Of a stretch of DNA of 64,000 nt, positions 28,763 to 53,871 are shown piece by piece. The position numbers were made by a program, and so were the translations under genes. The notes below the pieces were generated by a model. That model saw only the letters and a program-made list of their open reading frames with translations. It had not been told where the DNA came from and ran no database searches. The number at the start of each line of letters is the position of its first letter. Position 1 is the first letter of the stretch. Source of the DNA: a virus (taxonomy: Duplodnaviria > Caudoviricetes); IMG/VR virus record IMGVR_UViG_3300029288_000063, positions 160,001 through 224,000 of that record, one strand, 5' to 3'.

Positions 28763-29074
28763 ATGTATAGATTGGTCGTTGCGAAAGAATTGGTTGCCAT
28801 CTCCAAGACGTTGGTAGGTACAACTATTCGCGAGAAACTGAAACAGTATCCTGTGCGTTCGCGTGTGTGGCGGTTGACACGTGAGCATGGTCGGGATGTT
28901 TTTGTTGCGGAAGCCTCCGATTTTGGTTCGTCTGTCATTGTTGACCCGTGGGGTCGCAAAATCGACATGCGCCACATGAAGGAAGATATTGCCGCCGAGG
29001 ATGAGATTGTTGGATGGAGTGGTCGCACCACGGTTGATGGTATTCCGGTTGACCTCTACATCATCAATGACTAA
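28763..29074 (+). CDS. hypothetical protein with N-terminal helical tag
   Basis: MYRLVVAKELVAISKTLVG; GGAG RBS. Confidence 0.75.
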   Translation: MYRLVVAKELVAISKTLVGTTIREKLKQYPVRSRVWRLTREHGRDVFVAEASDFGSSVIVDPWGRKIDMRHMKEDIAAEDEIVGWSGRTTVDGIPVDLYIIND

Positions 29075-29083
29075 GGAGTAGCG

Positions 29084-29479
29084 ATGAGTATTTGGGAACT
29101 CTACAAGTCCATTTTCAGCCTGAAGGCGGATGACTTTGTTTTGGAAGGCGTGAAGCGTTCCGGTGGCGGCGTAAACCGCTCGAAGGATAAGACCTATCGG
29201 TTTACGGTTGTCCTGTCTGCCCCTGCCCCGGTTCAGTCGTTGGAAATCAGCGAGTCGGTTCAGGTTGTCCTGATAAACCGTGCCCGGCGGTTGCTGAAGA
29301 AGTTGGCAGGTCCGGATTTGGTTGTGCCGGTTAAGTGGGAGGTTGCCACGAAAGACGGTGGGACGAAGAAGAAGACATTCAACTTCGCGGGCAGCATTAC
29401 ACCTCTAACTGTTCTCGGATTCGAGATTTATGACGGGAAGTTTTTTGTGAAAGCCGAAATGCACGGCGTGTTTTATTGA
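29084..29479 (+). CDS. hypothetical protein
   Basis: AAGGAG RBS. Confidence 0.7.
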   Translation: MSIWELYKSIFSLKADDFVLEGVKRSGGGVNRSKDKTYRFTVVLSAPAPVQSLEISESVQVVLINRARRLLKKLAGPDLVVPVKWEVATKDGGTKKKTFNFAGSITPLTVLGFEIYDGKFFVKAEMHGVFY

Positions 29480-30442
29480 TTATTTCCCGTCGTTTGCGTT
29501 TTCTGTCAGGATTTTGCGAAGTGGAAAAACGGGCGCAGTCGTCCGTTTTTTCATTTTGAAGTGGATGAGTCCGTCTCGAACCTCTGTTCCGGTAACCCAA
29601 GGGATTTGTCCGGCTGCCTCGCAGACCCGTGCGGCGAACCTGTGGGGGTTTGTGTCGTCGCTGCCAAGTTGTTGTGCCATCTTCTCGACTCCTATCGCGT
29701 AACGGCGGCGGTTCGGGAGAAAGCTGAGGAGCCAGCGCAGGAAAACCGTCAAAGATCCGCTTCCTTGTCCCTCCTTGTAGTGAATAAACCAAGGGTTTGT
29801 GATAAGTTGTTCGATGTATCCGGGTTGCAGGTGGTATTCTATTCCCGTTTGCCCGGCGTAGTGCCCGCTGACGATGGCGGCGTGTTCCAATGTTATGGCG
29901 GCGTTTTGGAGTCCTGCCTTGAGTGCGGTGCCGTTCTGTTTGTCGGCTATGCGAGCGAAGTCGCTGTATTCGATGGTCAGGATTCTATCCCGCATCCGCC
30001 CGCAAACGATATGGTTTCCGATGCAAAGCATGGTCTGAAAAGCCAGCAGTCCGATATGTCCGTGCTTTGCCCGGCGCGGGGCGAAACGTGGCAATGGCGT
30101 TCGTGGGGCGGCGAGCCAGAGGGTTCTATCAACGGTTGTCGTGTCGATGCTGAGCTGACGTCGTCCGGGATGGCTTGCAGCGTGGCATCGGTCGCAAAGG
30201 GTTGCCGCGCTGACAAGGTCGGATTGATGCCGGATAAGGACGTGGTTATAAGCCTCGTCCCAATCGCCGTAGAATTTGTGGTGGTCCGCGATGCTGTGAT
30301 AAAGACTTTCGATATGGTGGAGGGTTACATTCTCTGTGCTTCCACAGCGAATACAGGCGGCTGCCCGGTTTCTGTCGACCCATTCCGAGTATATTTTGGA
30401 TGCCCGGATGCGTCTGATAATTTCCTGCGCGTTGTTCTTCAT
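29480..30442 (-). CDS. HNH domain fused to a TrfA/Rep-like winged-helix region
   Basis: CIRCG...LHHI...LCDRCHAASH, then ILTIEYSDFAR...NG...LQNAAITL and GVEKMAQQLGSDDT...RFAARVCEA. Confidence 0.6.
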   Translation of the reverse strand: MKNNAQEIIRRIRASKIYSEWVDRNRAAACIRCGSTENVTLHHIESLYHSIADHHKFYGDWDEAYNHVLIRHQSDLVSAATLCDRCHAASHPGRRQLSIDTTTVDRTLWLAAPRTPLPRFAPRRAKHGHIGLLAFQTMLCIGNHIVCGRMRDRILTIEYSDFARIADKQNGTALKAGLQNAAITLEHAAIVSGHYAGQTGIEYHLQPGYIEQLITNPWFIHYKEGQGSGSLTVFLRWLLSFLPNRRRYAIGVEKMAQQLGSDDTNPHRFAARVCEAAGQIPWVTGTEVRDGLIHFKMKKRTTAPVFPLRKILTENANDGK

Positions 30443-30740
30443 GCCCAAATTATATTGTTTTCTTCGGAGATGTTGGTAAAAAAACCCGGAGTTGTTGGTA
30501 GATTGTCACTTTTTGCCCTATGTCTGACACGTTTTATAAAGCCATGTACTGTCTGGGTTTATGCGGTCGTTTTTGCCCGTTTGGCTCTTCGTTTCTTCCG
30601 GATAATAACTATAATAGAGTATGATTGTCCACCCTCTTTGGATACCCGGAATGCTCTTGGGGGTGCCTTATTGGGTTGTTGTTAATTATTCTTTTATTAG
30701 TTGCCAAAGTAAGAGGTTAATATCTGAAAGGAGTAGGAAA

Positions 30741-31085
30741 ATGTCGTCAAGTCGGATTGCGAAGGAACTGTGTGTGATTGCCCGTGAGTTGGTTGGTGCG
30801 TCTGATATTGAGACGAAGGCGAAGGGTATTGCGGACAAGATCAATCGTTCGTCGAAAGTTCTTGAGGTGAAGTATGAGGTTGAGGAGAAGCGTCCGGGTA
30901 CGGTGGTGGTCTATTTTCGTGTGGAGTTGAAAGCGGACCCGTATGTGAATCCCGAGGGTGGTGTTTCTGTGTCGAACAAGTTCCGCAACGAGATGGAAGC
31001 TGCGTGCAAGAATGCGTTCGGTGAGGAGATTGACTGGAACAACACTGGAACGACTGGTTGGGTGTATATCCGCGAGCAGGCGTGA
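30741..31085 (+). CDS. hypothetical protein with N-terminal helical tag
   Basis: MSSSRIAKELCVIARELVG; AAGGAG RBS. Confidence 0.75.
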   Translation: MSSSRIAKELCVIARELVGASDIETKAKGIADKINRSSKVLEVKYEVEEKRPGTVVVYFRVELKADPYVNPEGGVSVSNKFRNEMEAACKNAFGEEIDWNNTGTTGWVYIREQA

Positions 31086-31097
31086 GGTTTATCCACA

Positions 31098-31481
31098 ATG
31101 GGTCACAACTCGTCTGTAGCGCGTTCTTTGTTGCGTATAGCCCGTCTTATGCTCTCGGGTAAAGAAAAGCCGTCCACGGCGTTTGAGGCGGCTTTTTGGG
31201 ATGTTCGTGAGAAGCTTCGTGCGGTAAAGGATGAGTTATCGGGGCGTGCGCGTGCGGGTTTGGAGTCGCGTCTGGTGGGTGATTTGCGTGGGCGTGGGTA
31301 TGAGGTGTTGGGTTGTGAGGTGAAGCTTGGGAAGTTTCGCGGGTCGTATTTTGTGACGTCGTGTCCGTTGCAGGTGCGAGGTGAGGCGAAGGGTTTGGAG
31401 GGGTATTTGGTTCAGACCTATAGTCCGAAGTTTCGGTTGAAGTCGTTTGAGGGTGGTATTTCCGTGTTTAACGTTCGGTGA
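31098..31481 (+). CDS. hypothetical protein with N-terminal helical tag
   Basis: SSVARSLLRIARLMLSG. Confidence 0.7.
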   Translation: MGHNSSVARSLLRIARLMLSGKEKPSTAFEAAFWDVREKLRAVKDELSGRARAGLESRLVGDLRGRGYEVLGCEVKLGKFRGSYFVTSCPLQVRGEAKGLEGYLVQTYSPKFRLKSFEGGISVFNVR

Positions 31482-31491
31482 GGGTAGTTTT

Positions 31492-32314
31492 ATGGAAGCG
31501 ATTTCGTTGACGCGTAAGGAACATGACAAGTTTATGCCGCTGGGTGACGCCGATGCGAAGGTGCTTCAGGGCATCAAGTCGAAGTGGAGTTTGGGCGGCG
31601 TGGTGTATATGCCGAGGAACGATAGGGAATTGGCGTTTTTGAAGCGTGTGTTCAAGAAAGCGATGGATAAGCAGAAGCTTGCTGGTGATTGCGAAGGGGC
31701 TTCTTGGCTTTGGCGGCAAGCTTGTTGGCAAGGAGTTTCGTTTGACGTGGGGGAACCTTGGGCTGGAGCTTCAAGAGCTTCATGCGCCGGGTTTGAAGCG
31801 GCTTCGTTTGTTTCATGCGAACGTGTGGGGTGGTGGGAATTTCCGTATCCTGAATGTTGAAAACTTCGTGGACAAGGTTGCGCCGGGCATGAGTTATGAG
31901 CAGGCGAAGATGTCCATCCAGAAGCAAATCGACGAGATGAAGGTGCTTGAGGTAAAGAAGTATGGCACCGACCCGAAGCATATGCAGTATGCGGTAAACA
32001 CGAATGAGGAGATGCTGAGTGCGCTGAAGGTTGAGCCGGAGGGCATGGATGCCATTTCGGTGGAGGCGAAGGGGTTCACGATTGAGTCGAAGTGGGCGAG
32101 TTTCAAGGCGTATAGCCCTGAAAGTGACATGGGGACGTCTGGCGACCCGTCGTATGCGGTTATTGAATCGAAGAGCGCGGGTGCGGCGCGGAAGCTTTAT
32201 AAGCTGCTGCGTCAGAATCCTGATGCTTTGAAGGGTGTTTCATGGGACGCGTTTTCGTCGTGGCTTGATCGGAACGGCGTGGCGTATGAGTATCACTTCA
32301 GCCAATGGCATTGA
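31492..32314 (+). pseudogene. tagged hypothetical protein apparently split by a frameshift at about 31645-31690
   Basis: frame A MEAISLTR...MDKQKLAG overlaps the +1 frame B SLLVIAKGLLG...HFSQWH, which has no RBS. Confidence 0.5.
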
Positions 32315-32327
32315 GAGGAGAGTTATC

Positions 32328-33377
32328 ATGGGTGGTTCATATACTCCGGTTCAGGGGTGGTTTTCTTTTTGGGGCAAGGGTGTGTTCAATGTTGACTTCG
32401 TGAATGACCTGAACAGGGTGATGGTGAAGTCGAAGGAGTTGGGCGAAGATGTGTTTTTGAAGTTTGATATGGGGAACAAGACATCTGCCGGTATTTCGAA
32501 TCGTGGTCGTGAGTTGAAGGGTGAGTATCCCGAGACGGTGATTTTGTGTACGTATCCCAAGGGTGTGACGGAAGCGGAGTTATTGAAGGTTGTGAAACCG
32601 GTGGCGCAGTCGCACAAGTTGAATGTGGAGTTTTTGGGGAAGACGAAGAAGAAGCCGGAGTTCCGTAAGGCGGGCGAGAGGGTTGCGTGGGAGCGTTGGG
32701 ATGAGGCGTCTGTGTTGCAGATGTTGAAAGACGAGCCGAGGCGGATTGAGTATTACAACGAGTGGCTGTCCCGAGGCGACCCGATTGACGAGGATGATGG
32801 GTTGTTGGATTCCCTTGATTCGCTTTTGAAGAAAAAGAAGATTCGGGTGAATGGTCATCGTGTTGTGATTGCGTCCGGTTTGAACCGGAAGAAGGCTATT
32901 GACCTGATCAATTCGTTCAACAACGCCAAGTTCATTGATATCCGTACTGCCCCGAAGAAGGGTGCCGGTTCGATGTATGTGTTTAGGGCGTCGAAGTTTG
33001 CGGCGGATGGAATTTTGAAGGCATGGCGTCGTGCGTATCCGCAGAACGAGGTTGAGTTGAAGTATATGGGTCCGGTTGGTGGAGAGGTGTTGTTGTGGGG
33101 TATTTTCATCATTATGGAGCCTGTCAAGGCGTCTGTGCAGGACATTGTGGCTTCTTGCGTTCGTGAGGCTATGATGAACGTCTCCAAGGACGCTGAGATG
33201 GCTGAAGACATTCTGAAAGACCTGAAGCGGCTTCAGGGGTATTTGACGAAAGCTGTTGTCGAGTTGGAGAAGGTGAAGGGTGGTGGCGAGAGTCCGTTGA
33301 ATTCCACCTCGCAGGTTGTTGCCATGCTTCGTGATGGCAAGCATTTCTCCAAAGCTGTTGAGTATTTCTTTGCGTGA
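32328..33377 (+). CDS. hypothetical multi-module late protein
   Basis: GAGGAG RBS; modules joined by RKAG, VIAS and VKAS linkers. Confidence 0.7.
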   Translation: MGGSYTPVQGWFSFWGKGVFNVDFVNDLNRVMVKSKELGEDVFLKFDMGNKTSAGISNRGRELKGEYPETVILCTYPKGVTEAELLKVVKPVAQSHKLNVEFLGKTKKKPEFRKAGERVAWERWDEASVLQMLKDEPRRIEYYNEWLSRGDPIDEDDGLLDSLDSLLKKKKIRVNGHRVVIASGLNRKKAIDLINSFNNAKFIDIRTAPKKGAGSMYVFRASKFAADGILKAWRRAYPQNEVELKYMGPVGGEVLLWGIFIIMEPVKASVQDIVASCVREAMMNVSKDAEMAEDILKDLKRLQGYLTKAVVELEKVKGGGESPLNSTSQVVAMLRDGKHFSKAVEYFFA

Positions 33378-33388
33378 GGGGGTGGGGA

Positions 33389-35086
33389 ATGCCATACGAT
33401 AGCGTGCAGGACGCTGTGAAGCGTCATCCGAATTTGGGGAAGTATAGTGCGAAGGCGCAGCGCGCTTTTGTGTCGGCGTTCAATAGTGCCTTTGAGTCGG
33501 GGAAGGACGAGGGTACTTGTTTTGCGATAGCGTATGCGGCGGCGAACAAGGTGGATGGGAAGACGTCAGCGGAGCATGAATGGTTTGATGACCGTTCGCA
33601 GCATGACATTCTGCACCAACTGGATGATGAGCCGTCGTGGGTTGAGGTGACGGAGCATAGAGACCCGTGGAAGTCGGTGAAGTGGGCGGCGGCGGTTGAG
33701 TTGGTTCGTGTGGCGAACATTTTGTCGTATGTGCAAGAGGGGAAATTCAAGGAGCGTCGTGAGGTTGAGTCGGCGGCGCGGTTGATGAAGCTGGTGATGC
33801 GCAAGATGGAGATGCCGGAGGCGGCGTCTGCCATGAATGACATTGGGGTTTTGGCGCATGGTCGTGGTGATGTGCGTGATTTGCCGGATATTGTTTTGAA
33901 GAACTTCAACGGGTTTCGTGGTTGGGGTGCGGGTGATTTTGCCGTGTTGTATTCGGAGTTGACGAAAGCCCGTGTGGTTCGTGAGATGGCGTTATCGGCG
34001 GCTGTTTCTGATGTTGTGAAGCGGATTAACGAGTCACCGCTTTCGCCGCAAGACAAGAGCGAGATGTTACGGCGTCCGGACAAGTTGAGTTTACCTGAGA
34101 GTGGTCGTTTATATCGCCGGGTGAATTTTGACCGTGAGGAGCAGATGTTCCCCGGTCGTCGTTGTCGTGTTGACTGGAAAAACCATGCGAAGTATCGTGC
34201 GGAGTTGCGTGGGATAGACCCGGACGAGATGTCGCATGAGGTTTGTGATTATATTCGTGAGCGTCATTTTGATAAGACGAATCCGAAAATTGAGCCGCCC
34301 AAACCGGACAATACCCGCGTAAAGGTTCCCGAAGGTGTTGCGGTGGTTGAGTATGATGCGAGGAAAGACCCGGTTCCGGTGGATGTGATTACCACGTGGG
34401 CGTCTGTTGGACGTATTGCTGCGAATTTGTCGGCAAGGTTAAAAAAGCTGATAGAGGATATCGTTGACGATTTTATTGATTTCAATCGGTCGAACGGTAC
34501 TCGAAGACAGGCGTTGGATACGCTTAAGTCGATGATGATGCGTGGTTTATATGGTTTGGAGGCGAAAGAGGAGTATTTTCGAGGTATGCCTGATTTTCGT
34601 AGGGCGTTAGAATATACTCTTTTGCGTCGTCTGCGTTTGAATGAGGTTGTTGCTTCGTCTGGCGTGTCTGGTTTTGAGGGTTTGTTTCGTCATATATTGG
34701 ATGATGAGGATTATGTCCAGACCTCTGATGTTGAAATAGACTACACGGTAGAGCCAGCGCAACATGGTGGCAGGTGGGACGAATCATATGGGGCGTATGT
34801 TGACGAGGTTAATATTGCCGGTATGGTTTGGTTGAAAATAAAGCTATCTCGGCTTGGTTTGTCTGTTGGTGATTTGTCTGAATCCGTTAGTGATTTGTTG
34901 TCCAGAAAAAAACGTTTTGAGTTTTCCGTGGAAAGTGATTTTGGTGATATCAATGTTGTCGGGGTGTTGGTTCGGGTAAAACCTTCAGGTTCGGATGTGC
35001 TGTTTGGTTTTGAAAAGCTTACGGTTGCGGATAAGAGTCTTAAACTGTTAAAAAAGAAGATTCAAAGATCGGAGGAAGAAAGATGA
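33389..35086 (+). CDS. ChaB-domain multi-module protein with an internal tag
   Basis: MPYDS...AQRAFVSAFNSA...FAIAYAA (ChaB-like); internal AAVELVRVANILS. Confidence 0.7.
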   Translation: MPYDSVQDAVKRHPNLGKYSAKAQRAFVSAFNSAFESGKDEGTCFAIAYAAANKVDGKTSAEHEWFDDRSQHDILHQLDDEPSWVEVTEHRDPWKSVKWAAAVELVRVANILSYVQEGKFKERREVESAARLMKLVMRKMEMPEAASAMNDIGVLAHGRGDVRDLPDIVLKNFNGFRGWGAGDFAVLYSELTKARVVREMALSAAVSDVVKRINESPLSPQDKSEMLRRPDKLSLPESGRLYRRVNFDREEQMFPGRRCRVDWKNHAKYRAELRGIDPDEMSHEVCDYIRERHFDKTNPKIEPPKPDNTRVKVPEGVAVVEYDARKDPVPVDVITTWASVGRIAANLSARLKKLIEDIVDDFIDFNRSNGTRRQALDTLKSMMMRGLYGLEAKEEYFRGMPDFRRALEYTLLRRLRLNEVVASSGVSGFEGLFRHILDDEDYVQTSDVEIDYTVEPAQHGGRWDESYGAYVDEVNIAGMVWLKIKLSRLGLSVGDLSESVSDLLSRKKRFEFSVESDFGDINVVGVLVRVKPSGSDVLFGFEKLTVADKSLKLLKKKIQRSEEER

Positions 35087-35829
35087 TTGGGAATCGTGAA
35101 TTATCCGCCGAACTGGTTTTGGTGGCGTCGTTGTTGGATGAAAAACAGTTTGGCTGCCGAACTGTTGTTGCGGCTGTGAAGGATATCCTTGGTACGTCTG
35201 ATGATGGTCTCGTTGACCGTGTTGCATCGTCGGTTCGTTGTGCCGCGCCTGATGAGAAGGCGCATGCGCTTGAGGGAATTCAGTATAACCTTCGGATGAT
35301 GACGTCCTTTGCCAGCAATGGTGATGGTTTTAACGTGGAAGGTTTTATGAGGAGTCTGAACGCTCTTATGAAGGATGTCAAGGAATATCAGAGGGCTGAA
35401 AAGTCCGTATCCGTTGCGAGGGGTCCGGTGCAGGATGCGATTGAGGCGTATGGTGACATTCACAAGCTCAAGACGAGGAACCTGAGTTGGCGTGGTCAAT
35501 TTGTCAGTTCGGCCGAGGTTCAAAAGGTGATGCAGGTGTCGGTGCCGGATGGATATAACGGTTTTAATGCGAAAAAGGTATCGGGTGCCGTTGCGAAGTT
35601 TTCGGCGTACAAGTGGGCGTTTGCCCGTGAGGGTAGTCCGGCGTTGTACTGCAAGGGCATCAAGACGAAAGACGAGGTTTTGAAGCTGTTTAGTGAGTTT
35701 GAAGATGTTGATGCCGACGAGCTTCATGTTATCTGGAAGGGGAAGTATTATTCCCGGTTATCGCGTAATAACATGAGTGAATTGCCTGAAGACCTGAGTG
35801 GTGCCCTGTGTCGGTTTTGGTGGGACTGA
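35083..35829 (+). CDS. hypothetical protein with N-terminal tag
   Basis: RELSAELVLVASLLD; AREGSPALY...ADE...RFWWD domain. Confidence 0.7.
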   Translation: MIGNRELSAELVLVASLLDEKQFGCRTVVAAVKDILGTSDDGLVDRVASSVRCAAPDEKAHALEGIQYNLRMMTSFASNGDGFNVEGFMRSLNALMKDVKEYQRAEKSVSVARGPVQDAIEAYGDIHKLKTRNLSWRGQFVSSAEVQKVMQVSVPDGYNGFNAKKVSGAVAKFSAYKWAFAREGSPALYCKGIKTKDEVLKLFSEFEDVDADELHVIWKGKYYSRLSRNNMSELPEDLSGALCRFWWD

Positions 35830-35957
35830 GTCAGATTTTGTTGCATGATTTGTTTTGAGGGTAATTTTTGTAAAGATTTAACAGCAAAACCTCAATGAGG
35901 TTTTGCTATTTTTTTTATTATCGTGAATGTATGGATAACTGTTTGGAGGAAAACATT

Positions 35958-36920
35958 ATGTGGGATTTCATAATTTATCTTATTCGTCGTTTTTTTGGTT
36001 TGTGTGCAGGGGATGTTCAGGTTGCAACCTCATCTGTAAGTGTTACAGAGCAGACAACTTATGGAGATAATGCCATGACAAACAATCGTTATGCCCTTTT
36101 AGTTGGCATCAATAAGTACACGTCGATGCAAGGTGCGGATTTGAACGGTTGTGTGAATGATGTGAATGATATGTACTATCGCTTGACGAAACATTATGGA
36201 TTCCCCGAGGACAACATTCGTGTTCTGTGTGATGCTCGTGCGACACAACAGAACATTTTGGAGCGTTTGGAATGGCTGGTATCGTCCGCGAAGCCGGGCG
36301 ACCAGTTGGTTTTCCACTATAGTGGGCATGGTTCGTCGATTCGTTGCCGTGTTGACGACAAATTGGAAGACGAAGAGTGTCAGATTTTGTGTCCGACGGA
36401 TATGGATTGGGATAACCCGTTGACTGATAAGATGTTGGCTCAGTTTTTCAAGCGCATCCCTGCGGGTGCGTTTTTGACGTTTATCTGTGATTCGTGCCAC
36501 AGTGGGACTATGGATCGTGGTGCGTTCCCTATTGGGAATCCACATGAGACAAAAATTCGCTTTATGCCGCCGCCCTTTGATATTTCGGTTCGTTCGCGTT
36601 CGGTGTTGCCGGTGAATCGCGTTGGTTGGAAAGATCTGAATGGTCCAAAAAACGGGAACATTGCGTTTTTTGATACTCGGCATTTATTGTTGTCGGGTTG
36701 CCGTGATAATCAGACTTCTGCGGACGCGTTTATTGGTGGGCAATATAATGGCGCGATGACGGCGGCGTTAAAAAAGGCGTTGGATAGCAATTTGGATGCG
36801 GATTGGTTTACTGTTCACACTGAGATGCTTAAATATCTAACATCGGAAAAATTCACTCAGGTTCCGCAGTTGAGTGGTCCTGAAAAGGTGCTGAAACAGT
36901 CGGTTTTTCGTGGGCTGTGA
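35958..36920 (+). CDS. caspase-family peptidase C14 (metacaspase-like)
   Basis: YALLVGINKY, LNGCVND, HYSGHG, DSCHSG dyad, SGCRDNQTSAD, QVPQL. Confidence 0.92.
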   Translation: MWDFIIYLIRRFFGLCAGDVQVATSSVSVTEQTTYGDNAMTNNRYALLVGINKYTSMQGADLNGCVNDVNDMYYRLTKHYGFPEDNIRVLCDARATQQNILERLEWLVSSAKPGDQLVFHYSGHGSSIRCRVDDKLEDEECQILCPTDMDWDNPLTDKMLAQFFKRIPAGAFLTFICDSCHSGTMDRGAFPIGNPHETKIRFMPPPFDISVRSRSVLPVNRVGWKDLNGPKNGNIAFFDTRHLLLSGCRDNQTSADAFIGGQYNGAMTAALKKALDSNLDADWFTVHTEMLKYLTSEKFTQVPQLSGPEKVLKQSVFRGL

Positions 36921-47460: not shown

Positions 47461-47568
47461 ATACAAATTCTTCTAAAATAATTTTATAAGCACCTAAGAG
47501 TGTGGGTGTGCCTTTGGATGTTCATGAAGGTACACCGTGGTTCTTTTTTTGGAAAAAGGAGGTGTGCT

Positions 47569-48192: not shown

Positions 48193-48244
48193 AAGAAAAA
48201 AGTCGGCCGCATAGGGTGGTCGAAAAATATGAAGGAGATGTGTT

Positions 48245-48994: not shown

Positions 48995-49244
48995 CTATAA
49001 GTGTGAATCCTGCGGGGAAGTCCTTGAAAGGGACTTCCCTGTGGGTAAAGCTCCTCAAACTATTAAGTGCTCCTGTGGTGAGTCTGCCGGTCGTTTTTAT
49101 GGGAGTGTGAGTTTTGTGCTAAAGGGCAGTGGTTGGCCATCGCAGACACATCGCCGGAAGGCGGAGGGTCTTGCGGCGAATGAAGCTGCCGGTCGTCGGA
49201 TGCGCAAATCTCATTCGTCTCCTAAATTGATTGATCAGCGGTAG
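48981..49244 (+). CDS. FmdB-family zinc-ribbon protein
   Basis: FDYKCESCG...KCSCG...FVLKGSGW. Confidence 0.85.
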   Translation: MALFDYKCESCGEVLERDFPVGKAPQTIKCSCGESAGRFYGSVSFVLKGSGWPSQTHRRKAEGLAANEAAGRRMRKSHSSPKLIDQR

Positions 49245-49261
49245 CCAAGGGGGTATCAGGA

Positions 49262-49540
49262 ATGAACCCTATGTTTAACGCAGACGATCAGGAAGAAGTT
49301 GTTCTTTATAGAACATCGGATATTCATTTCGCGAGTTTTCTTGGCGCGTTGGATGTTCCGTTGGTTAACACCGAGAGGGAAGAATCCGGCGATGGACGCA
49401 CGAAGGTAATGTTTGTGTTTCGGGTTCCGTCGAGTTCGCTGCGTCAGTTGAAGGCGCAGTATTTTGGTGGAACGGGTACGGTGAAGGTTCAGAAGTTTGT
49501 GCAGCAGTTGCGCAGCTTGAAATCTATGTGTTTTACGTAG
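49262..49540 (+). CDS. DUF5659-like protein
   Basis: YRTSDIHFASFL...KVMFVF. Confidence 0.65.
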   Translation: MNPMFNADDQEEVVLYRTSDIHFASFLGALDVPLVNTEREESGDGRTKVMFVFRVPSSSLRQLKAQYFGGTGTVKVQKFVQQLRSLKSMCFT

Positions 49541-49607
49541 GCTGTTGTCCTGTAAGGACAAAAGGCAATCGGTTCGCCGGATAGACTTCACTTGATGAGG
49601 TAAGAAT

Positions 49608-50363
49608 ATGCCCGTATTTCCCGGAACATTCATCAACACCGAGGCGGTTGGTATCGTGCGCTATGATAACATCATAGACAACCTACTTACGCCTCGTTTG
49701 ATTGCGTTTCGTGAGGTCAAGGTATATGACGAGGTAAGCACCTTGTTATCGGATGGTTTGACTTGGCGTCAGACGTACGGCAACTGGAACTCGACGTTTC
49801 CCTTTACTTTTGTGAAAAATGGTGCCGAGGTTGTCACTCCTTTGGTTGTTGATTATGTTGCCGGGAGTTTTCAGTCCGGGTCGGTATCGGCGGGTGACAG
49901 TTTTCGCAGTTCGTATTGCTTTGATTATTTCCCTGCCCCGGTGTTAAAGGGATATCTCGATACTGTTGTTGATATTGTCAATACGGGCGCATATGGTCCT
50001 CCTACCGGTTATTCTATCGAAACGATGCCTCCTTGGTGGGATGGTGTTGTTGTAGACCTTGTTGTAGCCATGTGTATGGAACGGTTGATTACCGACTACA
50101 CAATGTGGCGTGGTCGCTTGATTTTTGCAATTTCTGGCAATCAACTTGAGGATGGTGGAGGAGACATCGTTGGACAGCTTGAGACAATCAAGCGGAACGC
50201 TGAAGAGCGTGCGTACAAGACGATGGAAAATGAGAAATTCAAGAGTGGGAACTATTTGGCTCCTCCAACATCTATTTATTACAATGCGATTCGTGGTACG
50301 GGTCGTGGTGGAATGCATAGTTATGGAAGAACAAGGGGATGGCGTCCGAATCGTTGGATATAA
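49608..50363 (+). CDS. putative head-tail connector/neck protein
   Basis: helical C-terminal domain and position in the morphogenesis cluster (inference). Confidence 0.45.
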   Translation: MPVFPGTFINTEAVGIVRYDNIIDNLLTPRLIAFREVKVYDEVSTLLSDGLTWRQTYGNWNSTFPFTFVKNGAEVVTPLVVDYVAGSFQSGSVSAGDSFRSSYCFDYFPAPVLKGYLDTVVDIVNTGAYGPPTGYSIETMPPWWDGVVVDLVVAMCMERLITDYTMWRGRLIFAISGNQLEDGGGDIVGQLETIKRNAEERAYKTMENEKFKSGNYLAPPTSIYYNAIRGTGRGGMHSYGRTRGWRPNRWI

Positions 50364-50397
50364 ATTTTATATCTGACGTTTGTTGAAAGGAAAAATC

Positions 50398-50826
50398 ATG
50401 AATCGTGTTTTGATTGCGAAAGAAATAATGGCAATTGCCCGTATCCTTACGAGCACGGAGTTTGACTCTCAGGAGGCTATGAATAAATATTTGAGAGAGC
50501 ACCCTGATGCCGACCGCTCAAAGCATTCTGTCAAGAAGCCTGCCGGTGGCGGTTCCGGGGGTTCGGGCGGCCCGGGCGGTAAGAAGGTGAAGCCGCACAA
50601 GTCTTTGGGAGAACTGCTTGGTCAGTGGCATTCCTCTGGGAGCGACCCTATTTATCAGGTGTCGTCCCATGCGTCGGGAGGTCACGAGGTTGACCATGAT
50701 GTTGCAGTGAAAGCCCTGTCCCGTGTCAATCAGTTGTTGGAACGTGACGATGTGAAGAGTAACAAATCGGATGCCGCTCAGCTTGGAAAAGCAAAGAAGC
50801 TTTTGGAGCAGGCGGTTGGGAAATAG
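50398..50826 (+). CDS. hypothetical protein with N-terminal tag
   Basis: MNRVLIAKEIMAIARILTS; KYLREHPDADRSKH motif. Confidence 0.75.
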   Translation: MNRVLIAKEIMAIARILTSTEFDSQEAMNKYLREHPDADRSKHSVKKPAGGGSGGSGGPGGKKVKPHKSLGELLGQWHSSGSDPIYQVSSHASGGHEVDHDVAVKALSRVNQLLERDDVKSNKSDAAQLGKAKKLLEQAVGK

Positions 50827-50849
50827 GTTTTATACGAACGGGAATCGTT

Positions 50850-51176
50850 ATGGGTATTGATGTCGGACAAGAACTCAAAGAGATTCGGAACCTTATCGGT
50901 TCGGCCTGCATCATGGAGTCTGTGCGCCAAGAGGTTCGTGCGGCACTCCAAGATGGCAAAGCGATGATTCTTGACGGCGAACATGCCCAGTCGAGGGTTT
51001 CTGGTTCTTCGGGGTTTGATGTGGTTGTGATAGTATCGTCGATAAATGATGATGTGGTTGAATCTTTGGCTAGACGTTTACGTGCACGTATTCCAGATGC
51101 CGAAATCAAACGTATTGGTGTAGATGGCGTGCTTGGGGTTCGCGGTTCGCGTCGCGGTTCGAGGGGCACAAAATGA
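50850..51176 (+). CDS. hypothetical protein with weak tag
   Basis: DVGQELKEIRNLIG. Confidence 0.6.
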   Translation: MGIDVGQELKEIRNLIGSACIMESVRQEVRAALQDGKAMILDGEHAQSRVSGSSGFDVVVIVSSINDDVVESLARRLRARIPDAEIKRIGVDGVLGVRGSRRGSRGTK

Positions 51177-51796
51177 ACAAAACTATGATTGCGTCTGAGA
51201 TTCTGCGCTGTGCTAAGATGCTTGTTGGATGGGGGAAGCCGATGCCCCGGTCGTTCCATATTCCGAAAGACGCCCAGCCGACGAAAGATGTTGGTGGGAC
51301 GGATTTGGAAATCTGGACGTACGAGGGTGTGAATCCACGCGGACCGTATTTCGGTGGGATTGCGTTTGCCGGTAAGGCGCAGAAGCCGTTGTGGCATTAC
51401 ACGTTCCAGTCCGAGGACAAGCGTAGCGACTACATCAAGAAGACGATTGACCAGCGGAAGATGATTATGGATGTCAAAAACAAAGAGCGCGAGGAGCGTC
51501 GTAACTTCAAGCACTCGCTGAATGTTGGCGATATCCTGTATGACACGTGGGGTTATGACCAGACGAACGTGGACTTCTATCAGGTTGTCGCCGTTGGTGA
51601 GAAGTCTGTCAAGATTCGTCCTATTTCCAGCAGGAATACGGATGATAGTCACGTTGTTCCGCTCCCGGATAAGTTTACAGGTCCGGCTGAACTAAAAGTT
51701 GTTGGTCGTGGCAATCATGTTCGTGTTCATTCGGGTGCGGCTGGTCCGTGGGAAGGTCGTCCCGTGTATGAGACTCCATTTGGCATGGGTCACTGA
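51173..51796 (+). CDS. hypothetical protein with N-terminal tag
   Basis: MIASEILRCAKMLVG; VGDILYDTWGYDQTNVDFYQVV domain. Confidence 0.75.
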   Translation: MNKTMIASEILRCAKMLVGWGKPMPRSFHIPKDAQPTKDVGGTDLEIWTYEGVNPRGPYFGGIAFAGKAQKPLWHYTFQSEDKRSDYIKKTIDQRKMIMDVKNKEREERRNFKHSLNVGDILYDTWGYDQTNVDFYQVVAVGEKSVKIRPISSRNTDDSHVVPLPDKFTGPAELKVVGRGNHVRVHSGAAGPWEGRPVYETPFGMGH

Positions 51797-51813
51797 TGAG
51801 TAGGGGATAGTGG

Positions 51814-52302
51814 ATGCCGGATATTTCGAGCACGACAGGGAGGGAATTTTATAGTGGGTCATGGGAGGATATCCGTGACCTTTGTCGTGTTTTGAATATC
51901 GGAGAAGGTAAGCTTGCCACCATTACCCAGCAGACCGTAAACAAGTTTCAAGAGATGGTTGATAGAGAGATTGATGGCATTCTTGAGGATATGTATTGGG
52001 TTCCTCTTATTCAGATAAATCAGTATCAACCTGATGGAACCACAAAGTTGATCTTTCCCGGTTCGTTGAGACGTCTTGCGCGTTATTGGTCTGCCGGTTT
52101 GTTGTTGCAGGTTCAGTTTCAGGGTGTTGACCCGAACATAAACGAATCGGCGAGTGCGTTTATCGAGGATAGTCGAAAAGAGGTCTTCAAGCTTCGTCGC
52201 ATGACGAATAGATTGCCCGGTCAGCGGTTTAAATCTGCCCACATGGGGCATACGATGCCGCCGACAATGATGCCGCCGGTTATCCCGGAACAAGATTGGT
52301 AA
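51814..52302 (+). CDS. putative head-tail adaptor (Mu gp36-like)
   Basis: DREIDGIL...Y.VPL...P..LRRLA pattern. Confidence 0.5.
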   Translation: MPDISSTTGREFYSGSWEDIRDLCRVLNIGEGKLATITQQTVNKFQEMVDREIDGILEDMYWVPLIQINQYQPDGTTKLIFPGSLRRLARYWSAGLLLQVQFQGVDPNINESASAFIEDSRKEVFKLRRMTNRLPGQRFKSAHMGHTMPPTMMPPVIPEQDW

Positions 52303-52313
52303 GGGGGGTTGTA

Positions 52314-52670
52314 ATGGCACAGTTTGTTGACCCGAAGGCAGTTTTGAAGACTGATTTCACGGATATTCGTGCCTTGGAGCGTGCGGTTCGTCAGGCGTTG
52401 GCGGCTGAAGAGGAAGCTGTGTCGTTGTACGAGACGATTGCCGACTCCACAGATGTTGACATCGCAAAGAAGGTTTTGCAGGACATCGCCGACGAGGAGA
52501 AGGTCCACGCCGGAGAGCTGTATCGCCTGTTGGAAATTCTTACGGATGGTGAAGAGTCTGATTTCTTCCAAGAGGGTGTTGACGAGGTCGATGAGGGCAA
52601 AGTTGCGTCGATTGCCGGGCGTGTTGCGCACTCTATGATGCCGCGTTATCTCGGAGGAAAGGACAAATGA
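52314..52670 (+). CDS. ferritin-like (rubrerythrin/Flp-type) protein
   Basis: AVRQALAAEEEAVSLY...DIADEEKVHAGEL di-iron motifs. Confidence 0.85.
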   Translation: MAQFVDPKAVLKTDFTDIRALERAVRQALAAEEEAVSLYETIADSTDVDIAKKVLQDIADEEKVHAGELYRLLEILTDGEESDFFQEGVDEVDEGKVASIAGRVAHSMMPRYLGGKDK

Positions 52671-53146
52671 GGGGACGTCGGGCGATTCCGTGGCTTGTCA
52701 ATGTCGACTGTTGTGGGCATCGGGTCAATTTTGACCAAGAGCTTGAGAAGTATGGTACGGGTGTTTTGAATCCGAAATACGAGAAGGCGCTGGAACGGTT
52801 TTTCAAGACCAAAGACAAGAAGGTAATGTTGCAAAAAGCACTTCGTGCTGATAGGGTTCCTGTGTGGTGCGAAAAATGTCGCACCATAGAAGTTGTGGAT
52901 GTGGATTCTGGTGATTGTGTCAGTGGTTGTTCTATAAGGAGAGGTTCGATGTCGAATATTAACCAACGTGTCGCCGAAGAATTGATTGGTTTGGCGAAAT
53001 TGTTGTTGTCTGATGGTGTTCAGGTTAGTCGTGGTCGTGGTCTTGGTCGTGGTATGCGTTGCGGGCCACAAAATGGTTTGGGTTTCCGTTCCGGTCCTCA
53101 GGATGGTTCTGGAAACAACCCAAACTGTCCTATTAACAAGGATTGA
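52667..53146 (+). CDS. Cys-containing hypothetical protein, in frame with an internal tagged gene starting at 52949
   Basis: internal AAGGAGAGG RBS before MSNINQRVAEELIGLAKLLLS. Confidence 0.6.
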   Translation: MRGRRAIPWLVNVDCCGHRVNFDQELEKYGTGVLNPKYEKALERFFKTKDKKVMLQKALRADRVPVWCEKCRTIEVVDVDSGDCVSGCSIRRGSMSNINQRVAEELIGLAKLLLSDGVQVSRGRGLGRGMRCGPQNGLGFRSGPQDGSGNNPNCPINKD

Positions 53147-53208
53147 ATATACTTATGCGGTTGTTATGTTTTGGGGAAAACCATCAGCAATATCAAAGGA
53201 GTAGTTTC

Positions 53209-53871
53209 ATGTCTGACGTTAGGATGCGCATTGCGAAAGAGTTGTTGTTTGTAGCGAAAGAGCTTGCAGCGTTCTGGGATTTGAACATTGTTCCACCGAC
53301 GCGTTCTGACATTGAGAAATCGAAGAGTGTTGTGAAGTCCGCCCTTCAGAAGAAGGGAATGCGTTGCGACAAGCTCGAATTCCAGCGGTATATGGTCTAC
53401 CAAGAGAACAAAGATTGTTCCGGTCAGGAGTGTCAGCGGAACTCGAACAAGCACCTGTGTGTGTTTGGGTACAGCGATAAGAACGGTCAGTTCGGCGGCG
53501 GTGTTGCCGGTGGTCGTATTGGCGAGAACAATCAGCCGAAGCTGTATCAGGATTGGGGTATCGTTGGTGAGGGTGCGGATGGTGAGCGTCGTATTCGTGC
53601 GTTGATTGATGCGTATATCCGCAAGAAGACGACCCAGAGCGATGGGTACTCCGAGGTCAAGGTTGCGTCGGTTGCAGTGTCGGCTGACAACAAAGCTGAC
53701 GTCGAATACAAAATGAAACAGCAAGCGATAAAGAAGTCGTTGGAGTTTCTTGAAAAAAAACTTCGTGAGCACGCCGCTCATCAGTCTAAAGGCTACACTG
53801 ATTGGGGTTATGTTGGTGATTTGGAAAAGGTTCTTGGAAACCTTAACGAGATTAACAGGTTTTTGGGCTAA
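53209..53871 (+). CDS. tagged protein with a WGR-like domain
   Basis: RIAKELLFVAKELAA; NSNK...GRIG...KK...GYSEV; C-terminal DWGYVGDL module. Confidence 0.65.
   Translation: MSDVRMRIAKELLFVAKELAAFWDLNIVPPTRSDIEKSKSVVKSALQKKGMRCDKLEFQRYMVYQENKDCSGQECQRNSNKHLCVFGYSDKNGQFGGGVAGGRIGENNQPKLYQDWGIVGEGADGERRIRALIDAYIRKKTTQSDGYSEVKVASVAVSADNKADVEYKMKQQAIKKSLEFLEKKLREHAAHQSKGYTDWGYVGDLEKVLGNLNEINRFLG

What the first reader, a model, noticed from the sequence alone, without database searches (positions are those of the whole stretch)
28763..53871. Portable helical tag on about 10 unrelated late proteins: candidate capsid-targeting/cargo-loading system
Seen: nearly the same 14-residue segment starts many small genes with no other similarity. 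Examples: 28763 VAKELVAISKTLVG; 30741 IAKELCVIARELVG; 31098 VARSLLRIARLMLSG; ~31670 ISRSLLVIAKGLLG; ~33690 (internal) AAVELVRVANILS; 35083 LSAELVLVASLLD; 50398 IAKEIMAIARILTS; 51173 IASEILRCAKMLVG; 52949 VAEELIGLAKLLLS; 53209 IAKELLFVAKELAA; weaker 50850 VGQELKEIRNLIG. The consensus is [IV]A[KRSE]E[LI]xx[IVL]A[KR]xL, an amphipathic helix ending in a small residue. It occurs only in two late-region clusters (28.7-35.8 kb and 50.4-53.9 kb, the second among neck/tail-completion genes), and I did not see it in the early genes. Established: T4 internal proteins carry an N-terminal capsid-targeting sequence removed by the prohead protease, and encapsulin cargo uses short targeting peptides. Inference: this is an address label that loads diverse effectors into the head for ejection at infection, and new cargo can be recruited by acquiring the tag.
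Basis: partly seen in the sequence, partly recalled or inferred. Interest (0 to 1): 0.9.

Follow-up and report, generated by a model that had tools for sequence, protein, structure and literature searches.

The report
Portable helix tag on phage proteins
An uncultured 253-kb phage and its close relatives attach the same 14-residue helix to dozens of otherwise unrelated proteins, probably as an address label that loads them into the assembling virus head, though no packaging has been shown.

Summary
A profile of the motif finds 10 copies in the window and 30 in the whole 253-kb genome. All lie in coding frames of the gene strand. Two tag-free giant relatives (779 kb together) give only noise.

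The tag acts at protein level: synonymous codons vary, and it persists in relatives with 37-64% GC. It is portable. It sits 3-8 residues after the start Met in most carriers, at the extreme C-terminus in four, and in front of the catalytic domain in two enzymes. Carrier bodies share no similarity. Orthologues gain and lose the tag.

The link to the head is indirect:
- A small scaffold paralogue beside the protease and capsid genes ends in the tag in about half of the relatives.
- Tagged genes cluster around head and virion modules.
- A ferritin of the encapsulin-cargo type lies in the window and carries the tag in a relative.

Best reading: a capsid-targeting, cargo-loading label (about 0.55), analogous to the T4 capsid targeting sequence but different in sequence and placement. 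Cleavage, ejection and "effector" roles are untested.

This scan had already noted the same tag on other windows of this genome, and the same or similar tags in other genomes.

The parts
28763..29074 (+). Carrier 1, 103 aa. Tag core at 28778-28819 (residues 6-19). The body is an orphan.
   Evidence: Profile score 19.2 bits. ATG start with the tag 5 residues after Met. No Pfam or PHROG match.
30741..31085 (+). Carrier 2, 114 aa. Tag core at 30756-30797. The body is related only to the tagged gene at genome 104038.
   Evidence: Score 23.2 bits, AGGAG-like ribosome-binding site. The only body-to-body BLASTP match among carriers. No homologue besides itself among 5.8 billion proteins.
31098..31481 (+). 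Carrier 3, 127 aa. Tag core at 31116-31157.
   Evidence: Score 16.8 bits. Orthologues occur in six relatives. The tag is canonical in G004, degenerate in L011, L021 and G002, and absent in G005.
31646..32314 (+). Carrier 4, 222 aa. Tag core at 31667-31708. The start is uncertain: GTG, a weak ribosome-binding site, and overlap with ORF 31447-31860.
   Evidence: Score 14.0 bits. Start-codon context.
33389..35086 (+). Carrier 5, about 565 aa. A weak ChaB-like N-terminal domain is followed by an internal tag core at 33689-33730 and a long orphan C-terminal part.
   Evidence: Score 15.0 bits. ChaB E = 2.7e-4, below the Pfam cut-off. ATG at 33389 with a GAGGGGG-type ribosome-binding site.
35083..35829 (+). 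Carrier 6, 248 aa. Degenerate tag core at 35101-35142. This is a borderline call.
   Evidence: Score 8.3 bits, just above the noise ceiling of 6.7. It sits at the N-terminus and next to the cluster.
28721..28745 (+). Strong terminator-like hairpin just upstream of the first tagged gene. With the hairpin at 35883-35907 it brackets cluster 1.
   Evidence: An 11-bp stem followed by a T-run. The second hairpin at 35883-35907 also has an 11-bp stem and a T-run. These are consensus matches only.
50398..50826 (+). Carrier 7, 142 aa. Tag core at 50413-50454, followed directly by a conserved EF-(P/D)-(T/S)-Q...KYL-x-EHPDAD-x-SKH module.
   Evidence: Score 16.4 bits. In relatives the tag-plus-module unit recurs upstream of the capsid gene, and in L073 it is fused in frame to the tag-ended scaffold paralogue. 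Hints of a scaffold are weak only: phrog_206 E = 0.021 and Atlas row 5, TM 0.47.
51173..51796 (+). Carrier 8, 207 aa. Tag core at 51188-51229. The body belongs to a widespread family (phrog_37844).
   Evidence: Score 22.0 bits. AlphaFold2 with 50 homologues: helix 3-19, loop 20-25, then a beta-rich body, mean pLDDT 94. Of the 120 listed homologues (191 significant), 14 carry the canonical tag and many start directly at the body. No clear fold match.
52296..52670 (+). Ferritin-like protein of the encapsulin-cargo (EncFtn) type. It is untagged here and N-terminally tagged in the relative L011.
   Evidence: Pfam Rubrerythrin 2.7e-8 and EncFtn-like 0.009. The best solved-structure sequence matches are 5n5e, 7s8t EncC, 2e0z and 7s5c EncB. 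L011:16882-17223 is 48% identical and carries the canonical tag.
52667..53146 (+). Carrier 9. Tag core at 52970-53011. It is either a 159-aa protein (conserved N-domain, then tag, then a Gly/Arg-rich tail) or a 65-aa product from the internal ATG at 52949.
   Evidence: Score 16.9 bits. Strong AAGGAG sequence before 52949. Residues 1-95 are conserved in L015, L043 and G002. In G002 a degenerate tag follows in the same frame.
53209..53871 (+). Carrier 10, 220 aa. Tag core at 53230-53271.
   Evidence: Score 18.9 bits, AGGAG-type ribosome-binding site. No family match.
50850..51176 (+). Not part of the system.
   Evidence: It is absent from the profile hit list down to 2.6 bits. It is a conserved untagged gene with an orthologue in G002.

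Best explanation
**What it is.** The segment is a portable, protein-level docking helix with consensus [IV]-A-x-E-L-[VL]-x-[VIL]-A-[KR]-x-L-[VLM]-[GSA]. One face is a broad hydrophobic stripe, with two near-invariant alanines seven residues apart. A small-residue cap and a polar or acidic linker follow, and then a variable body.

**Most likely function.** It is an address label that recruits proteins into the assembling procapsid. It would do so by binding a head-assembly component: the capsid shell interior, the main scaffold, or a clade-specific small scaffold paralogue. The phage would then carry a variable set of internal proteins, and in this genome perhaps a type IB topoisomerase and a tRNA nucleotidyltransferase.

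**Shown here**
- The tag exists and is far above chance.
- Selection acts on the protein, not the DNA.
- The tag is modular in placement.
- Orthologues gain and lose it.
- It is restricted to one clade.
- It is physically and evolutionarily tied to scaffold-like head genes.

**Inferred only**
- Binding to the procapsid, the identity of the receptor, actual packaging, any later cleavage, and delivery into the host.
For: **Specificity**
- Thirty copies in the own genome, all in coding frames of the gene strand.
- None in Tunturi_5, and none that are real in the complete 470-kb G006.
- Clade relatives: 27 in the 140-kb record G002, 12 in the 66-kb G008, 10 in the 44-kb G010.

**Protein-level selection**
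- Conserved Ala and Leu positions use three to four different codons each.
- The tag persists in relatives with 37-64% GC.

**Portability**
- About 20 of 30 copies are N-terminal, four are at the extreme C-terminus, and some are internal.
- Bodies are unrelated and include topoisomerase IB, a CCA-adding enzyme, an EncFtn-like ferritin, a 2H phosphoesterase, a WGR domain and zinc ribbons.
- Topoisomerase IB is tagged here and in L021 but not in G002, G003 or G004. The CCA enzyme has a tag-like helix in G002 and G005 (both below the profile threshold) and none in G003. The ferritin is tagged in L011 but not here. In the 51173 family, 14 of 120 listed homologues are tagged.
- The AlphaFold2 model of the 51173 protein places the tag as helix 3-19, followed by a loop. 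Most structure alignments cover residues 26-102 and 113-193, and almost none reach the tag.

**Link to the head**
- A 100-120-residue paralogue of the main scaffold shares its N-terminal M-x-RER-[LIM]-T motif. It lies between the protease and the scaffold, and it ends in W-P-x-S-E... followed by the tag. This holds in 9 of 20 non-redundant relatives. The own-genome version carries two tags.
- Scaffold paralogues A and B are absent from both tag-free genomes, which do keep the protease, the decoration-like protein and the capsid protein.
- In G002 an array of about 20 back-to-back tagged genes lies between the head module and the block orthologous to window 47.5-70 kb.
- Known EncFtn ferritins are obligate cargo of HK97-fold shells, and here one carries the tag.
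- Eighteen of 29 carriers have pI of 9 or more, and none has a membrane segment.

**Precedent**
Against: - No virion proteome exists. All tag-bearing phages are uncultured, and the cultured relative Tunturi_5 lacks the tag.
- No complex could be modelled, so no receptor is identified.
- The tag-ended scaffold paralogue is missing near the capsid gene in about half of the relatives, including the tag-rich L011. It therefore cannot be an obligatory adaptor.
- Neither PHROGs nor Pfam names the small paralogues or the 381-residue acidic protein as scaffolds. Their identity rests on position, composition and conserved termini.
- Some carriers, such as the CCA-adding enzyme, have no obvious reason to be packaged.
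- The cluster at 59.9-67.3 kb lies among RNA-metabolism genes, not head genes.
- No protease-site pattern was established next to the tags.
Confidence: 0.55

Rival explanations
1. The tag is a general docking helix for a hub that is not the capsid. Candidates are a phage chaperone, a replication or RNA-processing factory, another phage-built compartment, or a host protein. It would gather diverse phage proteins at one place without packaging them.
For: - Nucleic-acid enzymes carry it: topoisomerase IB and the CCA-adding enzyme.
- One tag cluster (59.9-67.3 kb) lies among RNA-related genes.
- Window cluster 1 follows the exonuclease and RuvC genes.
- The conserved Ala-x6-Ala face fits specific helix-helix packing with any partner.
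Against: - The tag ends a scaffold paralogue inside the head module in many relatives.
- The densest arrays flank head and virion modules.
- A tagged EncFtn-type ferritin points to a shell interior.
- No candidate hub outside the head module was found to co-occur with the tag.
Confidence: 0.2
2. The tag is a recognition element for timed proteolysis or turnover. It would be a degron or protease-docking helix read by the prohead protease or a host AAA+ protease, rather than a loading signal.
For: - Its terminal position at either end resembles degrons.
- It sits on a scaffold-like protein that must be removed during maturation.
- The genome encodes a prohead protease and, next to cluster 1, a caspase-family protease.
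Against: - Internal tags in front of enzyme domains do not fit a terminal degron.
- Conservation of a whole amphipathic face is unusual for degrons.
- A degron does not explain the expansion on dozens of orphan genes beside head genes.
Confidence: 0.08
3. The tag is a membrane-binding amphipathic helix, like the terminal helices of MinD or FtsA. It would place phage proteins on the inner membrane.
For: - It is amphipathic, with a mean hydrophobic moment of about 0.48 and a slightly positive net charge.
- It is terminal and followed by a linker.
Against: - Membrane helices tolerate wide sequence drift. Here two alanines seven residues apart, plus Glu and Leu positions, are near-invariant across genomes.
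- Each genome keeps its own dialect, which suggests a co-evolving protein partner.
- A scaffold paralogue carrying a membrane anchor is unexpected.
Confidence: 0.07
4. The carriers are one fast-diverging paralogous family, and the helix is simply their best-conserved structural element, for example an oligomerisation helix.
For: - G002 has an array of about 20 adjacent small tagged genes that look like tandem duplicates.
- One pair of bodies in this genome is still detectably related.
- The heptad-like pattern could drive self-association.
Against: - The tag sits on proteins of demonstrably different folds and at either end.
- Orthologous enzymes exist with and without it.
- With the tag masked, 28 of 29 bodies show no similarity to one another.
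Confidence: 0.05
5. It is a nucleotide-level signal (promoter, translation leader or recombination site) or a chance helix motif.
For: The tag lies right after start codons in most carriers.
Against: - Synonymous codons vary at the conserved residues. Two copies with the same residue share the codon in 40% of cases.
- The motif persists from 37% to 64% GC.
- C-terminal and internal copies exist.
- Hits on the opposite strand: none in the own genome, in the eight relatives' records scanned whole, or at 12 bits or more in the relatives' loci. Two of 8-12 bits occur in 842 kb of loci, and one of 11.3 bits in the record G001 is a likely false hit.
- The 779 kb of control genomes give no real hit.
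Confidence: 0.01

Closest known systems
Capsid targeting sequence (CTS) of T4-type internal proteins (IPI, IPII, IPIII, Alt)
   Same: - A short leader is shared by otherwise unrelated, fast-changing proteins.
- The genes form arrays near head genes.
- The proposed role is loading into the scaffold core of the prohead. [quoted passage not shown]
   Different: - There is no resemblance to the T4 leader as I recall it; no alignment was run.
- Here the tag is a 14-residue amphipathic helix that also works at C-termini and internally.
- About 30 carriers per genome, including enzymes.
- The capsid protein is of the phage G type, not T4-like.
- Cleavage after assembly is not shown.
Coat-binding C-terminal helices of phage scaffolding proteins (P22 gp8 type), and engineered cargo loading by fusion to a scaffold fragment (P22 nanocages, PMC9962691)
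   Same: - A terminal helix on a scaffold-family protein is the likely source or model of the tag.
- Fusing such an element to foreign proteins loads them into the shell, which is what the engineered P22 system does.
   Different: - Here nature would have spread the element over dozens of genes.
- The main scaffold of this clade ends in a different conserved motif...I-W-x-S-A-P-D-V-S-x-V-F.
- Only the small paralogue carries the tag.
Encapsulin cargo-loading peptides
   Same: - Short terminal peptides direct cargo to the interior of an HK97-fold shell.
- An EncFtn-type ferritin, the classic encapsulin cargo, is present and is tagged in a relative.
   Different: - Encapsulin peptides are mostly C-terminal, extended and Gly/Ser/Leu-rich, not helical. 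This is from my own knowledge.
- The shell here belongs to a real phage with terminase, portal and tail genes.
Encapsulation peptides of bacterial microcompartment enzymes
   Same: An amphipathic helix of about 15-18 residues at either terminus, separated from the enzyme by a poorly conserved linker, and portable between proteins.
   Different: - No microcompartment shell gene is present in this genome.
- The sequence pattern differs.
N-terminally processed head proteins of phiKZ/SPN3US-type giant phages and the P1 Dar proteins
   Same: Many internal or ejected proteins are incorporated through the head-assembly pathway (PMC5694885, PMC7411985 and PMC9024508 appear in the search results; I did not read them).
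   Different: - Those systems are defined by protease processing and paralogue families, not by one short conserved helix.
- They have no sequence or capsid-type relation to this clade.

Membership tests
T4-type capsid targeting sequence (CTS) | A short N-terminal leader shared by otherwise unrelated internal proteins | tested here: met
   Most carriers have the tag 3-8 residues after Met, and the bodies are unrelated. C-terminal and internal copies also exist, which the T4 CTS does not have.
T4-type capsid targeting sequence (CTS) | Sequence homology to the T4 leader, in a T4-like head gene set (gp23-type capsid) | tested here: not met
   The capsid protein is of the phage G type (NF042927, 155 bits). 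No carrier matched any T4 internal-protein family in PHROGs. Dissimilarity of the leader itself is from recall of the T4 sequence, not from an alignment.
T4-type capsid targeting sequence (CTS) | Removal by the prohead protease at a defined site after assembly | not testable with these tools
   A protease homologue exists (genome 96332-97345, 37% identical to Tunturi_5 gp331). Its specificity is unknown and no consistent site next to the tags was established.
T4-type capsid targeting sequence (CTS) | Demonstrated packaging of tagged proteins into heads | not testable with these tools
   All tag-bearing phages are uncultured. The cultured relative lacks the tag.
Encapsulin cargo-loading peptide | Terminal peptide on cargo of an HK97-fold shell that lacks portal and terminase | tested here: not met
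   The genome encodes a large terminase, a portal and tail fibres, so the shell is a phage head.
Encapsulin cargo-loading peptide | Cargo of the EncFtn ferritin type carrying the targeting peptide | tested here: met
   The window protein 52296-52670 best matches EncFtn, EncC and EncB chains. Its L011 orthologue carries the tag at the N-terminus. The peptide itself is unlike encapsulin peptides.
Bacterial microcompartment encapsulation peptide | Co-occurrence with BMC-domain shell proteins | tested here: not met
   PF00936 has no match in the 253-kb genome, while the control genomes do match.
Phage scaffolding protein terminal coat-binding element | Located at the end of a scaffold-family protein encoded between the protease and the capsid gene | tested here: met
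   Paralogue A shares the N-terminal motif of the main scaffold. It lies between the protease and the scaffold and ends in the tag in 9 of 20 relatives. The scaffold identity itself is inferred, because Pfam and PHROGs find nothing.
Phage scaffolding protein terminal coat-binding element | Direct binding to the capsid protein | not testable with these tools

The most novel reading that the evidence does not exclude
The head of this phage clade works as a programmable container, loaded the way encapsulins are. On this reading the 14-residue helix binds the interior of the HK97-fold shell, or a scaffold paralogue bound there. Any protein that acquires the helix at either end is then packaged. 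The tagged EncFtn-type ferritin would mark a living link between phage capsids and encapsulin nanocompartments. Similar but non-homologous tags noted in other huge phages would then make cargo addressing a general and so far undescribed feature of large phage heads.
Probability: 0.2. Interest if true: 0.9.

Novelty: new variant of a known kind. Interest (0 to 1): 0.75.

Why it matters
- **Scale.** If the tag is a loading signal, this clade carries the largest natural set of capsid-addressed proteins described from sequence: about 30 per genome, and 10% or more of the genes in some fragments.
- **A simple rule.** The signal is short, helical and independent of position, so it could be tested directly and reused for protein encapsulation.
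- **What giant phages bring into the cell.** It would give a sequence handle for predicting the internal and possibly ejected proteins of uncultured giant phages. It would also explain how new cargo is recruited, by gain of a 14-residue module.
- **Origin of encapsulin loading.** The tagged encapsulin-type ferritin bears on how cargo loading in HK97-fold shells arose.
- **If the partner is not the capsid.** The tag would still define a large, unexplained interaction network in these phages.

Tried and rejected
- **Carrier bodies.** Pfam and PHROGs on the ten window carriers gave nothing apart from phrog_37844 for 51173 and weak hits. PHROGs and Pfam on the scaffold paralogues, the main scaffold and relatives' tag-module proteins gave nothing usable.
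- **Known phages.** Megablast of 24.9 kb of the window against known phages found no match. A tblastn with the wrong capsid candidate (the 381-residue acidic protein) found no match. The capsid gene was then located with NF042927.
- **Short-profile genome search.** The genome search with the 17-column tag alignment on Tunturi_5 returned nothing because the first look cannot seed on so short a profile. I replaced it with a local six-frame hmmsearch on the fetched genomes.
- **Portal query.** A search of viral contigs with the portal found only one distant locus.
- **Fold of 51173.** Foldseek against the PDB gave no hit at E of 0.001 or better. VIA-align gave a best Z of 6.9, within the stated noise range.
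- **Tag versus paralogue B.** hhalign of the tag profile against the conserved C-terminal helix-turn-helix of paralogue B showed no similarity, so B does not carry a cryptic tag.
- **Mini-protein at genome 156.5 kb.** It has a C-terminal tag and matches the capsid protein only over 12 residues of the N-arm region. I did not pursue this.
- **Literature.** Four searches and two papers consulted by term search found no description of this tag or of phage-borne EncFtn.
- **Protein atlas for 50398.** Only weak structural neighbours appeared.
- I therefore could not check whether other N-terminal helices seen in the 51173 family are tags of other phage clades.
- **Unused resources.** The second structure-prediction job and the representative-protein search were not used. 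The tool reports no inter-residue contacts, and a 17-column profile cannot reach significance against 1.8 billion proteins.

Full report
**Setting**

The window is bases 160001-224000 of a single 253,102-bp IMG/VR virus record (GC 49%, CheckV completeness about 75%) in which almost every gene is on the plus strand. The genome encodes:
- DNA polymerase, topoisomerase II subunits, NAD-dependent ligase and an SbcC-like exonuclease
- a large terminase and a portal
- a prohead protease
- a major capsid protein of the phage G type at genome 100501-101361 (NF042927, 155 bits)

The nearest deposited phages by capsid protein are an uncultured 485-kb phage (70% identity), Tunturiibacter phage Tunturi_5 (48%) and Bacillus phage G (36%). 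IMG/VR holds 273 contigs with a related capsid protein, most of them 86-93% identical.

ORF listing and a regular-expression scan recovered the motif at the stated places. I built a 17-column profile from the hits and iterated it on the six-frame translation of the whole genome.
- The scores are bimodal. There are 31 hits of 8.3 bits or more. Thirty lie in coding frames of the gene strand and one is a probable false hit in a 32-residue arginine-rich segment. Everything else scores 6.7 bits or less, and nothing on the minus strand exceeds 6.7.
- Ten hits are in the window.
- Two giant relatives serve as negative controls. The cultured Tunturi_5 (309 kb) has no hit above 6.7 bits. The complete 470-kb genome G006 (capsid protein 70% identical) has a single 8.9-bit hit, in a 21-residue non-coding segment.
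- In 842 kb around the capsid gene of the close relatives there are 62 hits of 12 bits or more on the gene strand and none on the other strand.
- Whole records of close relatives give 27 tags in 140 kb (G002), 12 in 66 kb (G008), 10 in 44 kb (G010), and fewer in G004, G005, G003 and G001.

**Protein signal or DNA signal?**

The conserved Ala and Leu columns use three or four synonymous codons each. Two copies with the same residue share the codon in only 40% of cases. The tag is kept in relatives whose GC content ranges from 37% to 64%. C-terminal and internal copies exist. A nucleotide-level signal is excluded.

**Anatomy**

The consensus is [IV]-A-x-E-L-[VL]-x-[VIL]-A-[KR]-x-L-[VLM]-[GSA].
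- On a helical wheel, residues 1, 5, 8 and 12 form a hydrophobic ridge. It is flanked by the two near-invariant alanines (2 and 9, seven apart) and by residues 6 and 13. The other face is charged.
- The helix ends in Gly, Ser or Ala and is followed by polar or acidic linker residues.
- In seven window carriers an ATG lies 3-8 residues before the core, most with a Shine-Dalgarno-like sequence.
- Genome-wide, about 20 of 30 copies are N-terminal in this sense. Four lie at or near the C-terminus (genome 60476, 61126, 93869, 156688). The rest are internal.
- Each genome has its own dialect: I-A-R-E-L-V-A-V-A-R-E-L-T-A in G002, V-A-S-E-L-L-K-L-A-K-S-L-V-A in L011, and a looser V-A-K-E-L-V-R-V-A-R-x-L-V-G here.

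**Portability**

- With the tag masked, all-against-all BLASTP of 29 carriers finds one related pair, window 30741 and genome 104038.
- The 30741 body has no homologue among 5.8 billion proteins.
- Pfam on 91 tagged proteins from this genome and its relatives finds few domains, and they are diverse: zinc ribbons, a 2H phosphoesterase, a WGR domain, several DUFs and a rubrerythrin/EncFtn-like ferritin.
- In this genome a type IB topoisomerase (catalytic core from residue 107, tag at 85-98) and a tRNA nucleotidyltransferase (domain from residue 105, tag at 69-82) carry the tag. In each it lies between a small N-terminal extension and the enzyme.

Orthologues differ in tag status:

| Protein | Tagged | Degenerate or sub-threshold | Untagged |
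|---|---|---|---|
| Topoisomerase IB | own genome, L021 | - | G002, G003, G004 |
| CCA-adding enzyme | own genome | G002, G005 | G003 |
| Window 31098 protein | own genome, G004 | L011, L021, G002 | G005 |
| 51173 family | 14 of the 120 listed homologues (191 significant) | other N-terminal helices in some | many start at the body |

An AlphaFold2 model of the 51173 protein with 50 homologues (mean pLDDT 94) has the tag as helix 3-19, a loop at 20-25, and then a beta-rich body. Most structure alignments cover residues 26-102 and 113-193, and almost none reach the tag helix.

**Link to the head**

The gene order around the capsid gene is:
1. protease (96332-97345)
2. a 212-residue acidic protein (97349-97987)
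3. a 185-residue protein (98079-98636)
4. a 381-residue very acidic repeat protein (98677-99822)
5. a decoration-like protein
6. the capsid protein

- **Main scaffold.** The 381-residue protein ends in ...I-W-x-x-x-P-D-V-S-x-V-F. This motif is conserved in 52 relatives, including the tag-free 70% clade. I take this protein to be the main scaffold.
- **Paralogues A and B.** The two smaller proteins start with the same M-x-RER-[LIM]-T / ...E-I-x-x-L-E motif.
- **Paralogue A.** It ends in N-W-P-x-S-E..., followed by the tag at the extreme C-terminus, in 9 of 20 non-redundant relatives with enough upstream sequence. The own-genome copy has two tags and an acidic tail.
- **Paralogue B.** It ends in a highly conserved helix-turn-helix, A-R-L-x-x-A-S-x-R-L-D-R-V-A-x-Y-L-E-K-x-G...L-A-x-R-I-D-x-I-A-D-A-I-D. 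This shows no profile similarity to the tag.
- **Co-occurrence.** Neither A nor B is found in the two tag-free genomes, which keep the protease, the decoration-like protein and the capsid protein. The tag system therefore co-occurs with clade-specific scaffold paralogues.
- **Limit.** A is missing near the capsid gene of tag-rich L011, so it cannot be an obligatory adaptor.

**The two window clusters**

Cluster 1 (28763-35829):
- It follows the exonuclease and RuvC genes and precedes a caspase-family protease and tail-fibre genes.
- It is bracketed by two strong terminator-like hairpins at 28721-28745 and 35883-35907.
- In G002 the RuvC orthologue is also followed by a tagged gene.

Cluster 2 (50398-53871):
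- It is interleaved with conserved untagged genes (49608, 50850, 51814, 53872, 54977 and onward). In G002 these form a block directly downstream of the head module, after an array of about 20 back-to-back tagged genes.
- Pfam and PHROGs name only minor-tail-like proteins further downstream. 'Neck/tail completion' is therefore plausible from synteny but unproven.
- The 50398 protein is the tag followed by a conserved EF-P-T-Q...KYL-K-EHPDAD-K-SKH module. In relatives this unit recurs upstream of the capsid gene, and in L073 it is fused in frame to paralogue A.
- The 52667-53146 ORF has a conserved N-domain followed by an internal Met and the tag. The tag may be internal there, or a 65-residue product may start at 52949.

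**The ferritin**

The gene at 52296-52670, inside cluster 2, is a short di-iron ferritin-like protein. Its best matches among solved structures are encapsulin cargo proteins: Pyrococcus EncFtn 5n5e, Myxococcus EncC 7s8t and EncB 7s5c, and the Pyrococcus shell fusion 2e0z. It has no canonical tag here. Its orthologue in L011 (48% identical) starts with a canonical tag. Known EncFtn proteins work inside HK97-fold shells. This is an independent hint, by analogy only, that the tag addresses the interior of such a shell.

**Interpretation**

- That the tag is a portable docking helix under protein-level selection is well supported (about 0.9).
- That its target is the assembling head is the best-supported reading (about 0.55). 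It rests on the tag-ended scaffold paralogue, the placement of tagged arrays, co-occurrence with clade-specific scaffold paralogues, the tagged ferritin, the basic character of most carriers (18 of 29 with pI of 9 or more), and the T4 precedent.
- Not shown: binding, packaging, cleavage, ejection, or any effector role. The receptor is unknown. Candidates are the shell interior, the main scaffold and paralogue B. Pairing between tags is also possible given the heptad-like Ala-x6-Ala pattern.
- Rivals: a non-capsid hub, a turnover signal, a membrane helix and a divergent paralogue family. All are weighed in the Rival explanations section.

**Novelty**

I found no description of this tag in four literature searches or in the two papers I consulted by term search. 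The concept of a capsid targeting sequence is known from T4. If the function holds, this is a new variant of a known kind, with a different sequence, shape, placement rules and scale.

Other notes of this scan report the same tag on other windows of this genome, the same M-N-K-I-A-x-E-L-x-R-I-A-K motif in another genome, and analogous tags in several other large phages. These are unchecked AI notes. I tested their claims only where stated.

**Limits**

- All tag-bearing genomes are metagenomic fragments.
- Gene starts are my own calls.
- Scaffold identities are inferred.

Noticed in passing
window 52296-52670: A short ferritin-like protein whose best solved-structure sequence matches are encapsulin cargo ferritins (EncFtn 5n5e, EncC 7s8t, EncB 7s5c). 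A homologue in the tag-free 470-kb relative G006 carries a roughly 190-residue C-terminal extension instead of a tag.
   Followed up: partly
L003:6677-7822 (genome 98677-99822) and 52 relatives' loci: The acidic repeat protein upstream of the capsid gene ends in a very conserved G-G-Q-P-[KR]-V-A-S...I-W-x-S-A-P-D-V-S-x-V-F. The motif is also kept in the 70%-identity clade. It is the likely coat-binding end of the main scaffold, and the V-A-S may be a protease site.
   Followed up: partly
L003:6079-6636 (genome 98079-98636): A small scaffold paralogue (B) with a near-invariant C-terminal helix-turn-helix. It is present in 51 relatives' loci and absent from both tag-free genomes. It is a candidate receptor or second scaffold.
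   Followed up: partly
P0018, P0024, P0030, P0038, P0049 and others (homologues of window 51173): In other huge-phage contigs (up to 450 kb) the same body family starts with different short helices (R-V-A-x-R-[FY]-L-E-A type, or M-D-K-I-A-S-P-x-E-L type). These may be tag dialects of other clades.
   Followed up: no
G002:C1:72000-88000 (L110, L111): An array of about 20 back-to-back small genes, each starting M-[DN]-x-Q-x-I-A-R-E-L-V-A-V-A-[RK]. It lies between the head module and the virion block.
   Followed up: partly
window 31447-32314: ORF 31447-31860 and the tagged ORF 31646-32314 overlap in different frames. The tagged ORF has only a GTG start with a weak ribosome-binding site. An assembly frameshift or an unusual start is possible.
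   Followed up: no
window 35895-36920: A caspase-family protease (Peptidase_C14, E = 6e-29) lies immediately after cluster 1. Its first possible start overlaps the terminator-like hairpin at 35883-35907.
   Followed up: no
L006:16523-16744 (genome 156523-156744): A mini-protein that ends in a canonical tag and contains a 12-residue stretch 75% identical to the N-arm region of the capsid protein (Q-P-L-R-x-R-R-D-Y).
   Followed up: partly
loci L009-L076 and records G001-G005, G008, G010: The capsid protein stays 86-93% identical across phages whose genomes range from 37% to 64% GC, while other shared proteins are only 30-60% identical. This points to unusually strong constraint on the shell protein.
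   Followed up: no
whole genome G000: In my codon-usage-based gene call, 314 of 316 genes of the 253-kb record lie on one strand.
   Followed up: no
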